A stretch of 64,000 nucleotides of DNA from Bugula neritina (Eukaryota; Animalia; Bryozoa): positions 558,001 to 622,000 of the forward strand of contig OZ037770.1 of assembly GCA_964035545.1 (NCBI GenBank), read 5' to 3'. Numbering within the stretch: position 1 is the first letter of the stretch; each line of letters starts with the position of its first letter. A model generated the notes under the pieces. It worked only from the letters and a program-made list of their open reading frames with translations. It was not told where the DNA came from and made no database searches. Shown piece by piece: positions 45,201 to 48,200 of this stretch. Position numbers and translations under genes: made by a program.

Positions 45201-48200
45201 CTTGTTTGATTGACAACTTCTTTTTCATAAAAAACTATTTGTGCAGGAGCTATTGGAGCTACAAGATTGAAAAAGCAAGTGGGCAATAAAAATGATATAC
45301 GAACACAGTTTAATTTAGTTGAGACAGTCACTGTCTTGTACTACACTACTTATAGAAGCACACAGATCAAACTACGGTCCACCAAGAGGGTGGATGTCAT
45401 AAAGAAGTTGAGCAGCTCATCTTCAAGGCATGAAGCACAGTTCTACTTGGTTAAAAAATTTACCGGCTACTACACCACACCATTAGCTACTAGCCATTAT
45501 ATATACTAAAATTCACACTAAAATTGTAAGTCATTGCTATCCCTGTGAAAAAACCTTGATGGAAAGAGTTTCCTTTAAAACAAGCTAAAACGTATTCATG
45601 GTTGGAACAGGATCAATTATTATTACTTCAGATGCTCCTTTTAACATCACCAATTTATCTTTACTGGATATAAACCACTGACTCCAGGCTTACTGAGTTT
45701 GACCTCTAACCCTTAAATCATTGCTTCTCTTTAAATTTCTAGCTACTAGTTGTTAGAGATTAGATATATGGTAACTACTAGTAACTAGATGCTATTAAAA
45801 TTGAACATATCAAAATTTCTTACGAATTATTATTGAGGCTGTGGTGTGTGTGGAGTCGAGTCTGACACCCCTGAAAGTAAAACTAGTCAACCAGATGGTG
45901 AAAGTACAGAGCCTCCCTGCTGGTAAACTCTCTATCCATTCTGTAGATGTTGGTGCAGTCCAAGAGAAATCCTACAGTAAAAATACAATGCAACTATACA
46001 CGATATATAAAGTATTTACTTAGGGCCTATAATACACATGTGCATGTAGTGCATATATTTTATGCATAATATATACCATTTGTATTTATATATACAATAC
46101 ACAAATAGAATACCTATGCACACACAATTTTTTTATATTTTTTATACACACAATTTACATTTAGCAGTTGAGTAACTGAAGCTTAACTCGAAAGGTACTC
46201 CGTGACTCATAGCTTGTCTAACTCAACCAGTCATCAGCTGAAAAGCTAGTTATCAGTTGAGTCTTACTAACAAACATACTTAAGACTCTCTGACTCACCA
46301 AGTATAGATAACGATCACCACACTCAGTTGATGATTTGATGACCAGTGAATCATACAATGTGTCTCTCAGTGTCCATTCCAGCATGACTTTGACTTTGTT
46401 TGTAGAATTTTGCTGAATTGGTGTTACTGTAAAGGATCGTACTGGGAAAGGAGCTAAAGAGGTTTGAAAATAAACGAAATAAACACTTTCAGACCTTGAA
46501 ATTATTCACATAATTTTTATAAAACTTTATCAGACACCATTTATATTGTTTACTTCTAGGAAATTTGTTCTTTGTCATCTAATATCTTTATATAGTTCTA
46601 AAATGTTTTGTTTCACAGTTTAATTTTTTGACATTAAATTCAAGAAAAAGATTTCAACAAACAATTTTGTTGTATTTTATCAAAAATTATGTCTTATGCA
46701 CAGAAAGAAACAATGTGTAGATTAAATACATACCAACTGCTTTTTTGATAATTTTCTGCAACTTTCTACCTCCACTGTTTACTCGAAAGAGAATTTCGTA
46801 ACTATTACCAGGTAAAATAGGAAATACTTCTTTAGAGCTGCTTTCTGGGGCCTACATTTACAGTCATCCATAGTGACACATACGAACTGTTTACCTTTAA
46901 CATTTGAAAATGGCCCAGATTTCATATTTATACATAGTTCAATGTTTGTTATGTAAGTTAGCAATTGTAGCAGTATAACTTTAACATATACACATGTATT
47001 ACAAGAGAGAGAAATATGAAATAGGAAATACTTCACTGTCTAAAGAGGCTTCAATGTTTGTTATGTAAATTGGCAAAGGAAGCTCTACCTTTTACATACA
47101 TATGTGTAGGTATTATGTGTGGAGGCCTACTTGTATCTTTCTGTTGATTGTCACTCTACGATCACCAGATACGGCCAGGTCTATTGATGTATACTCATCA
47201 CTCGGATTCCAGGACACAGTAAGACGGTCGTCATCGATTGTCACCAGAATATATGAAGGTAATGCCGGTCCTGAAAAATTAATATTGTCAGGAAACTGTG
47301 GTTATAGAAGCACCCAAAACCCTGCAATGTTTTGTGATGACAATTCAAAGTTATATATAAACTTGGATGTTGTTATTTCTAATCTTCTCTGAAGAACAGT
47401 AAATGCACCACTTGGCTGCTACTATATGACATTGCTTAATACCTGTTTCCAATATTGTCTTATGAGATATTTCATATAGTTCCATCTTCTCATCTCCTAT
47501 TGAAGCGCTAAACAACTGAAAGGAAACATTTCTGTTGCCAGGAAGATTTAGTTGAGTTCTACTCCATATTTGTTCTCCATCCATACCTGAGAGAGAAAAG
47601 GAATAGGTGACACCATAGCAAAAAAAATAGAGAAAAACAATAAATATTTTACTTCTGTAATAAACCAACATGTATATTTACTGTATTTAGGTCACAAAGT
47701 AGGCTAACAAAAGTACGTCTATAAAAATGACTTTCAGGTCAAAAACACTAGAATACTGTAGTTTACCTGTTACTTTTTGCTCTTGGTTGTCTCCTACAAC
47801 AATGTAATTTATTACAAGTCCATTGTAAAAAGAAAGCTGTCCTGATAATGTTTCATTCGGTGGAGGCTCGATCTTTACAATAAAATCATCATTTTCTCCA
47901 TTTGATACTAGAAACTCTTTTGCTACCATTGGAGCTGAAAACGTAAAATGTATGAGCTTATTGATATTTTAGCCATTATTTTATAAACTTTAAAATTAAG
48001 TTTTAGGGTGGTAATTTTTAAATTATTTCTATTTATATAATTGGAATTATAGCAGTGTTCTATTTTTAGCTGCCTTATAGAGGCATATGCCTGAGTGGCA
48101 TAAATTTTGGCCATTAAGAGGACAGCCAACAAAATTTGACACAAAAATAGTGTATTGCCATGTATGATTCATCTAAAACAGTATATAAACTAGTTAAGTG

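What the first reader, a model, noticed from the sequence alone, without database searches (positions are those of the whole stretch)
46299..47270. Paralogs are exon-level mosaics: G2 switches from G1-like to G3-like within ~1 kb
Seen: exon 6 of G2 is 34/47 identical to G1 but only ~17/47 to G3, whereas exon 8 is 47/52 identical to G3 (with matching flanking intron) but ~30/52 to G1. Exon 7 and ~50 bp of its upstream intron are nearly the same in all three genes (58355-58238, 46851-46734, 33414-33297). Inference: gene conversion or unequal crossover using exon 7 as a homogenised hub reshuffles distal and proximal halves.
Basis: partly seen in the sequence, partly recalled or inferred. Interest (0 to 1): 0.72.

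Follow-up and report, generated by a model that had tools for sequence, protein, structure and literature searches.

The report
Recombination scar in bryozoan receptor array
Four tandem genes, likely from a bryozoan and predicted to encode fibronectin-type cell-surface proteins, are patchworks of one another, and the second gene keeps a 19-base relic of exon 7 in its intron that likely marks where two paralogs recombined; such exchange is ordinary for receptor gene clusters.

Summary
G1-G3 (plus a cut-off G4) are intact 15-exon paralogs predicted to encode signal peptide, about six FN3-like domains, a transmembrane helix and a short tail. The only close database relative found is a Bugula neritina hypothetical protein.

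G2 exon 6 is G1-like (79% nt versus 57% to G3), exon 8 is G3-like (95% versus 69%), and exon 7 is 91-92% alike in all three. The mosaic far exceeds chance (0 of 20,000 permutations).

The interpretation needs correcting: G2's distal half is not G1-like. Exons 4-5 lean to G3; only exon 6 and about 57 nt of intron 6 are G1-type. G2 and G3 share younger ancestry from mid-intron 6 to the 3' end.

New here: G2 intron 6 holds an exact 19-nt copy of exon 7 (47037-47019) ending just before G3-likeness starts (47017), likely an out-of-register junction scar that makes G2 the recombinant. Two exon-7-region sites separate all window copies from all laid contigs of two related runs, a weak sign of concerted evolution.

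This is layered gene conversion and unequal exchange, as in protocadherin and Trojan clusters: a new member of a known kind.

The parts
53630..61812 (-). Gene G1, 15 exons, 682 aa, intact ORF; predicted signal peptide, FN3-like ectodomain, TM helix, short tail
   Evidence: all introns GT-AG; exons 11-13 82% aa to B. neritina P0001
42262..51503 (-). Gene G2, 15 exons, 697 aa, intact ORF; the likely recombinant
   Evidence: exons 3-4 71% aa to the C-terminal part of P0001
3414..36729 (-). Gene G3, 15 exons, 685 aa, intact ORF; 21.4-kb intron 9; LTR element in intron 12
1..2715 (-). Gene G4, exons 1-4 and start of exon 5, cut by the window end; 2817 of 2913 aligned bases identical to G3
47131..47270 (-). 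G2 exon 6, G1-type (110/140 nt to G1, 80/140 to G3)
47074..47130 (-). First ~57 nt of G2 intron 6, similar to the start of G1 intron 6
   Evidence: 0 of 1000 shuffles reach the score; G1-G3 and G2-G3 not similar here
47050..47068 (-). 19-nt intron piece duplicated at 46956-46938 (first copy of the doubled intron-6 3' region)
47019..47037 (-). Exact 19-nt relic of exon 7 nt 19-37 inside G2 intron 6 (matches G1 and G3 exon 7; G2's own exon 7 matches 16 nt); likely junction scar
   Evidence: longest such match in the other 41 introns is 12 nt; 0 of 1000 shuffles reach 19 (max 13)
46852..47017 (-). G3-type 3' part of G2 intron 6 (81% over 172 columns); its last 57 nt are also 85% like G1
46734..46851 (-). 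G2 exon 7, homogenised with G1 and G3 (91-92% nt; pS 0.20-0.24)
46241..46480 (-). Youngest G2-G3 conversion tract: exon 8 (46453-46299, 148/155 nt, pS 0.04) plus flanks
58238..58662 (-). G1 exon 6, intron 6 and exon 7: counterpart of the G1-type patch and of the shared exon 7
33051..33580 (-). G3 intron 6 3' part, exon 7 (33414-33297) and exon 8 (33205-33051): counterpart of G2's right side

Best explanation
G2 is likely a recombinant paralog made by several exchanges within a tandem array of genes predicted to encode FN3-type cell-surface proteins. Inferred order: (1) an old transfer put a G1-type exon 6 and the start of intron 6 into the G2 lineage, before the split from the related runs X2/X3; (2) an out-of-register crossover or long conversion joined that left part, at exon 7 nt 37, to intron 6 of a G3-lineage gene, so that everything from 47017 to the 3' end is G3-type, and a deletion later reduced the first copy of the acceptor and exon 7 to a 19-nt relic; (3) shorter conversions evened out exon 7 plus ~57 nt of acceptor among G1, G2 and G3 and, most recently, exon 8 between G2 and G3. 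Hybrids would survive because exons 3-9 have the same lengths and phases in all three genes. Shown: gene models, mosaic statistics, the intron step, the relic. Inferred: direction, order, mechanism, FN3 assignment of exons 6+7, and any receptor or adhesion role.
For: Mosaic: (GENECONV-like scan: exon-6 G1G2 tract 0 of 5000 permutations; G2G3 tract exon 7-8 0 of 5000). Triangle expected from G1-to-G2 replacement of exon 6, versus exons 4-5: G1-G2 pN falls from 0.32 to 0.15 (p=0.0014), G2-G3 rises from 0.24 to 0.42 (p=0.0013), G1-G3 is unchanged (0.36 vs 0.40, p=0.47). Non-coding support: the intron 6 start is the only non-microsatellite 5' intron end of 14 where G1-G2 beat all 1000 shuffles; G2-G3 introns align only from intron 6 nt 114 onward. 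Relic ends at 47019 and G3-likeness starts at 47017. Synonymous dips: exon 7 G1-G2 pS 0.24 and G1-G3 0.20 versus about 0.54 in exons 8-14 (p=0.009, 0.001); exon 8 G2-G3 0.04 versus 0.30 (p=0.0015). At 46784 (codon change; 4 of 4 contigs in each of X2 and X3) and 46858 (intronic; 2 of 2 in each), the relatives' contigs differ from G1, G2, G3 and all X1 contigs.
Against: Exon-6 synonymous distance alone is not significantly low against exons 8-14 (G1-G2 pS 0.42 vs 0.54, p=0.27; only vs exons 3-5, p=0.02), so most of that signal is amino-acid changing. At third positions, exon 6 versus exons 4-5 gives p=0.07. The 19-nt intron duplicate matches G2's own downstream copy 19/19 but G3's 17/19, which also fits a local duplication. 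Relatives' exon-7 contigs differ from G2 by 14/114 and 15/107, only slightly more than window paralogs do (10-12), so exon 7 may also be slow-evolving, and only two sites separate the lineages. X2/X3 come from one study, and assigning their contigs to G1- or G2-type genes is inferred from 30-nt flanks. hhalign found no significant repeat between exon pairs (best probability 1.5%).
Confidence: 0.7

Rival explanations
1. G3 (with G4) is the odd gene: its exon 6 evolved fast or came from another paralog, G1 and G2 keep an ancestral exon 6, and G3 took its 3' half from G2.
For: The exon-6 signal is mostly non-synonymous. Contigs in X2/X3 show two exon-6 types at least 80% like G2's, so the G1/G2 type is common in the family. 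G3 is about equally far (32-35 of 75 nt) from G1, G2 and the relatives' G1-type contig.
Against: G1-G3 pN in exon 6 equals that in exons 4-5 (p=0.47) while G1-G2 drops (p=0.0014). The intron-6 start is G1-G2 similar. The relic is in G2 only; G1 and G3 intron 6 have at most 9-nt matches to any exon 7.
Confidence: 0.13
2. The mosaic comes from short conversions only; the intron-6 relic is a decayed local tandem duplication within G2 and does not mark an intergenic junction.
For: The duplicated 19-nt intron piece is identical to G2's own second copy and 17/19 to G3's.
Against: The first copy lacks the ~60 nt G3-type stretch that precedes the second copy, so a second deletion is needed. The relic's end falls within 2 nt of where G2-G3 alignment begins. 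G2-G3 similarity then runs through nine consecutive introns.
Confidence: 0.12
3. No exchange: exon-specific purifying selection and rate variation on one tree produce the pattern.
For: Exon 7 is fairly conserved in relatives too (86-88% to G2), and acceptor-side intron conservation could be a splicing element.
Against: Synonymous and intronic similarity switch partners along the gene; exon 8 G2-G3 pS is 0.04 against 0.30; two lineage-diagnostic sites are shared across paralogs.
Confidence: 0.03
4. G2 is an assembly chimera of G1 and G3.
For: Tandem arrays are hard to assemble; no laid contig spans the whole stretch, and run X1 may be the source sample.
Against: G2's parts are only 79%, 91% and 95% like the supposed donors, not near 100%. 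X1 contigs match G2 without a mismatch at 47006-47273, 46951-47035 and 46833-46971. B. neritina P0001 shows a G1-like gene followed by a G2-like gene.
Confidence: 0.02

Closest known systems
Teleost clustered protocadherins, regional gene conversion (PMC1852091; abstract text and search passages seen)
   Same: Tandem cell-surface paralogs with divergent N-terminal domains and homogenised membrane-proximal ones. Here G1-G3 pN is 0.42-0.44 in exons 2-3 and about 0.26 in exons 9-14.
   Different: Those are cadherin repeats in single variable exons spliced to constant exons. These are separate 15-exon genes with FN3-like domains, and one junction is visible at base resolution.
Avian Trojan/Mystran/Thracian family (PMC4372362; abstract and passages seen)
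   Same: Three adjacent type I membrane genes with FN3 domains; GENECONV-detected conversion between paralogs, including an FN3-coding region.
   Different: Trojan proteins have a CCP domain and two FN3 domains, and one member is a phosphatase. No homology to the window genes was found or tested directly.
Hydractinia Alr complex (PMC9546547 and PMC8282982; passages seen)
   Same: Clustered single-pass genes in a colonial invertebrate; Alr2 exons are reported to shuffle with adjacent pseudogenes by conversion or unequal crossing over; the Alr spacer has an Fn3-like fold.
   Different: Alr domains are Ig-like and one exon each, and allorecognition is shown experimentally. Here domains appear to span two exons, the G2 and G3 tails have no YxxL/I/V motif, and no function or polymorphism is shown.
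Biomphalaria polymorphic transmembrane clusters PTC1/PTC2 (PMC10875847; passages seen)
   Same: Lophotrochozoan clusters of single-pass genes, some with FN3 domains and tandem duplications.
   Different: PTC loci are defined by hyperpolymorphism and parasite resistance; neither was tested here, and no homology was found.
Bugula neritina hypothetical protein EB796_006966 (P0001)
   Same: 82% aa to G1 exons 11-13, followed by 71% to G2 exons 3-4: same family and gene order; FN3 by ESM Atlas features and structure.
   Different: Apparently a fused, partial gene model of two neighbours; unnamed and without function.

Membership tests
Regional gene conversion / unequal exchange in a tandem array | Clustered runs of pairwise identity beyond chance | tested here: met
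Regional gene conversion / unequal exchange in a tandem array | Signal also at synonymous and intronic sites | tested here: met
   exons 7 and 8 synonymous; introns 6-14; exon 6 synonymous signal alone is weak (p=0.27 vs exons 8-14)
Regional gene conversion / unequal exchange in a tandem array | Paralogs share lineage-specific variants (concerted evolution) | tested here: inconclusive
   two such sites, 46784 and 46858; one study; paralog identity of the contigs inferred
Regional gene conversion / unequal exchange in a tandem array | Incongruent trees with four or more full sequences | not testable with these tools
   no genome held; homologue searches with exons 7 and 6 found none
FN3-domain type I membrane protein | FN3 fold in the ectodomain | tested here: met
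   ESM Atlas on P0001 residues 8-158 (G1 exons 11-13 equivalent): top feature score 0.96 with fn3 clusters, TM-scores 0.60-0.80 to FN3 proteins. This covers those exons only; Pfam gave no hit above cut-off for 19 single exons
FN3-domain type I membrane protein | Exons 6+7 form one FN3 domain | tested here: inconclusive
   phase 1-0-1, 85 aa and FN3-like motifs (motifs recalled); hhalign to other exon pairs not significant; Atlas on exon 6 uninformative
FN3-domain type I membrane protein | Signal peptide and one transmembrane helix | tested here: met
   hydropathy peaks near residue 632 in G2 (2.11) and G3 (1.74) and at the N-termini (1.0-1.8); simple window scan only, and G1's second peak was not printed
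R3 receptor tyrosine phosphatase (recalled) | Cytoplasmic PTP domain | tested here: not met
   exon 15 encodes only 27-46 residues before the stop
Allorecognition or immune-receptor complex (Alr, PTC type) | Extreme allelic polymorphism | not testable with these tools
   no population data; a G1-like but non-G1 contig in X1 could be an allele or a paralog
Allorecognition or immune-receptor complex (Alr, PTC type) | Tyrosine-based signalling motif in the tail | tested here: not met
   no YxxL/I/V in the G2 or G3 tail; none visible in the G1 tail sequence
Allorecognition or immune-receptor complex (Alr, PTC type) | Genotype predicts fusion/rejection or resistance | not testable with these tools
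   needs experiments

The most novel reading that the evidence does not exclude
The array is a bryozoan self/non-self or pathogen-recognition complex, convergent on Hydractinia Alr but built from FN3 domains. Exchange at a standardised exon 7 lets different exon-6 half-domains and distal domains be swapped onto a common stalk, while the distal exon 2 diversifies (G3 vs G4: 11 of 202 nt differ, 9 of them amino-acid changing, against 26 of 1813 in introns).
Probability: 0.12. Interest if true: 0.75.

Novelty: new member of a known kind. Interest (0 to 1): 0.36.

Why it matters
The process is well known. The value here is a clean case with a junction placed within 2 bases, and an apparently unnamed bryozoan family of tandem surface proteins with a variable tip and an evened-out stalk. 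Bryozoans are named as capable of allorecognition (PMC9546547, passage seen), and my searches listed no paper on such genes in them, so the array is a cheap candidate to test. In practice, whole-gene trees and orthology calls for this family will mislead.

Tried and rejected
No whole genome is held, so further paralogs could not be read.

Pfam on 19 single-exon peptides gave no hit above cut-off; two faint hits at E about 0.2.

Homologue searches: exon 13, longer proteins, 1 hit among 474 candidates; exon 7, longer, 0 of 39; exon 6, near length, no candidate. Representatives search with exon 13 gave 4 hits: two short exon-like peptides of unknown origin (P0002, P0004), one repetitive protein judged spurious (P0005), and one not fetched (P0003). 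Metagenome scan with exon 7: 328 pattern matches, none confirmed.

No RNA holder was listed, which says nothing on expression.

In X3 no contig other than the G1-type and one further type was laid on exon 6 at 80% or more. This hints that its G2-type gene has a different exon 6, but a hole in cover is not evidence.

The apparent intron-2 similarity among all genes is an (AG)n microsatellite and was rejected. A microhomology junction was considered and rejected: relic and G3-type intron abut with a base between. hhalign between exon pairs was not significant. The structure prediction of P0001 had not finished and was not used. Earlier-findings look-ups returned nothing. tblastn found no further exon relics in the window. 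GARD and GENECONV were not run; a simple permutation analogue was used. No supplementary files were read.

Full report
Setting. The window is 33% GC animal-type DNA. Reading the minus strand and checking splice sites gave four tandem paralogs: G1 61812-53630 (682 aa), G2 51503-42262 (697 aa), G3 36729-3414 (685 aa), each with 15 exons, all GT-AG and with open frames, and G4, cut at the window end. Exons 3-9 have identical lengths and phases in G1-G3. A search with exon 13 found one homologue among 474 candidates, Bugula neritina EB796_006966, a cheilostome bryozoan. It is 82% like G1 exons 11-13 and then 71% like G2 exons 3-4. So the G1-then-G2 order is shared, and the G1/G2 split (62% in the same region) is older than the species split. 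The window is therefore likely from a close relative of Bugula (inference). The ESM Atlas assigns FN3 to the G1-like part of that protein. Phases 1-0-1 suggest six two-exon domains (2+3 to 12+13), then a TM exon and a short tail. That exons 6+7 form one domain is inferred and was not confirmed by hhalign.

Observation. Informative sites (G1G2/G1G3/G2G3) are 71/65/48 in exons 1-3, 45/32/76 in exons 4-5, 40/8/10 in exon 6, 4/5/4 in exon 7, 5/0/45 in exon 8 and 55/62/212 in exons 9-15. The exon-6 excess was reached by 0 of 20,000 codon permutations. A GENECONV-like scan of 697 polymorphic sites in exons 3-14 placed the best G1G2 tract in exon 6 (0 of 5000), the best G2G3 tract in exons 7-8 (0 of 5000) and a G1G3 patch in exon 13 (17 of 5000). 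The mosaic is real, but G2 leans to G3 on both sides of exon 6, so 'G1-like distal half' is wrong.

Non-coding evidence. G2-G3 introns 1-5 gave no blastn hit. From intron 6 nt 114 (47017) onward every intron aligns, in main blocks of 71-81% (intron 7 only in two short end blocks). G2-G3 pS is 54/99 in exons 4-6 and 63/249 in exons 7-14 (p=3.6e-7). G1 aligns to the others over a long block only in the last 57-73 nt of intron 6 (81-85%). Among 14 intron 5' ends, G1-G2 similarity beat all 1000 shuffles only in intron 6 and in intron 2, which is an (AG)n repeat.

The junction scar. G2 intron 6 (279 nt) reads: about 57 nt G1-like; a 19-nt piece (47068-47050) repeated exactly at 46956-46938; a 19-nt exact copy of exon 7 nt 19-37 (47037-47019); then G3-type intron from 47017. 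The relic matches G1 and G3 exon 7 over 19 nt and G2's working exon over 16. In the other 41 introns (long ones cut to their ends) the longest match to a flanking exon is 12 nt, and 0 of 1000 shuffles reached 19. A doubled intron-end plus exon-start, ending where the partner changes, is what an out-of-register exchange would leave. It points to G2 as the recipient, which three sequences alone could not show. Against this, the duplicated piece fits G2's own second copy (19/19) better than G3's (17/19), so a local duplication remains possible.

Direction and age of the exon-6 patch. Against exons 4-5, exon 6 shows G1-G2 pN falling from 0.32 to 0.15 (p=0.0014), G2-G3 rising from 0.24 to 0.42 (p=0.0013) and G1-G3 unchanged (p=0.47), as expected if G2's exon was replaced by a G1-type one. 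The synonymous signal is weak (pS 0.42; p=0.27 versus exons 8-14, p=0.02 versus exons 3-5). Three runs of one study were laid. X1 holds 91% of the words and may be the source sample. X2 and X3 hold only contigs mostly under 95% alike and behave as relatives. A 308-base contig in X2 and X3 has an intron-5 flank 22/30 like G1's (read by eye). At 11 of its 16 listed exon-6 differences from G2 it carries G1's letter, and over 75 nt it is 10 from G1 and 16 from G2, with G1-G2 at 17. So the G1/G2 exon-6 sharing is older than the split from X2/X3; it is not a recent copy.

Exon 7 as hub. G1's pS to G2 and G3 drops to 0.24 and 0.20 here from about 0.54 in exons 8-14 (p=0.009, 0.001). Of 11 listed variant places in and just upstream of exon 7, five are ones where G1, G2 and G3 agree and the relatives differ. 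Two of these (46784, codon-changing, 4 of 4 contigs in each run; 46858, intronic, 2 of 2 in each) are in all laid X2/X3 contigs and in no X1 contig; the other three are in only some contigs. X2/X3 include contigs with a G1-type intron-7 flank (26/30 by eye), so both gene types are probably represented. This is the signature of concerted evolution, on two sites. Relatives' exon-7 contigs are 14/114 and 15/107 from G2, window paralogs 10-12, so the evening-out is roughly as old as that split and conservation may contribute. The youngest tract is G2-G3 exon 8 with about 60 nt of intron 8 (pS 0.04 versus 0.30, p=0.0015; 34-40 of 40 identical per bin over 46480-46241).

Artefact check. A mis-join would copy a donor exactly; G2's parts are 79%, 91% and 95% like theirs. 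X1 contigs match G2 with no mismatch in overlapping pieces from exon 6 into exon 7, though none spans the whole stretch.

Comparison. Regional conversion with a variable tip and homogenised stalk is described for fugu protocadherins (PMC1852091, passages), for FN3-bearing avian Trojan genes (PMC4372362, abstract and passages) and as exon shuffling at Hydractinia Alr2 (PMC8282982, passage; PMC9546547, passages). Sea-urchin Sp185/333 (PMC5103432, passages) and snail PTC clusters (PMC10875847, passages) are further analogues. The locus works like these; it is not shown to be homologous to any of them. Four searches aimed at bryozoan FN3 or recognition gene clusters (listings only) showed no paper on this family; the library lacks most subscription papers.

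Verdict. Best reading (0.7): G2 is a layered recombinant with its main junction at 47019/47017 in intron 6. The mechanism is a new member of a known kind; interest 0.36. The open upside is that the array is a recognition locus (probability about 0.12). G3 and G4 differ at 11 of 202 nt in exon 2, nine of them amino-acid changing, against 26 of 1813 in introns 1, 3 and 4 (p=0.0006), though pN does not exceed pS within the exon (p=1.0).

Noticed in passing
window 35824-35623 vs 1805-1604 (G3 and G4 exon 2): Exon 2 differs at 11 of 202 nt (9 amino-acid changes) while introns differ at 1.4% and exons 3-4 at one base each: diversifying selection on the tip domain, or a small patch from another paralog.
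   Followed up: partly
window 37748-42100: Gypsy-like LTR retrotransposon between G2 and G3 with identical 198-bp LTRs and one 1272-codon open frame; probably a very recent insertion (class judged from the gag-pol-like ORF, not searched).
   Followed up: partly
window 5045-9874: Second LTR element, inside G3 intron 12; LTRs 98% alike, 5-bp flanking duplication, frame interrupted by one stop into 803 and 549 codons.
   Followed up: partly
window 11150-32592: G3 intron 9 is 21.4 kb against 249 and 565 nt in G1 and G2; it holds no long ORF (one of 153 codons) and no exon relic.
   Followed up: partly
intron 2 of G1-G4 (about 59937-60075, 48360-48459, 35383-35583, 1337-1564): All four genes carry an (AG)n microsatellite at the start of intron 2 although their introns 1-5 are otherwise unalignable between G1, G2 and G3.
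   Followed up: no
run X1 contigs laid at 47189-47280 and ending at 46731: A G1-like sequence that is not G1 (flanks 24-25 of 30 alike by eye): a further paralog or a strongly divergent G1 allele.
   Followed up: no
runs X1-X3, joints 46768-47158 and 47285-47424: Contigs of another gene type with G2-like exon 5 and 6, a shorter intron 6 and a divergent first part of exon 7: the family has members whose exon 7 is not homogenised.
   Followed up: partly
window 57129-57233, 45883-45987, 32652-32719 (exon 9) and 4560-4776 vs 55292-55508 (exon 13): Further patches: part of exon 9 is about 90% alike in all three genes, and exon 13 has a G1-G3 patch (17 of 5000 permutations).
   Followed up: partly
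window 57358-57940: About 580-nt (GCTACT)n/(ACT)n repeat fills most of G1 intron 8.
   Followed up: no
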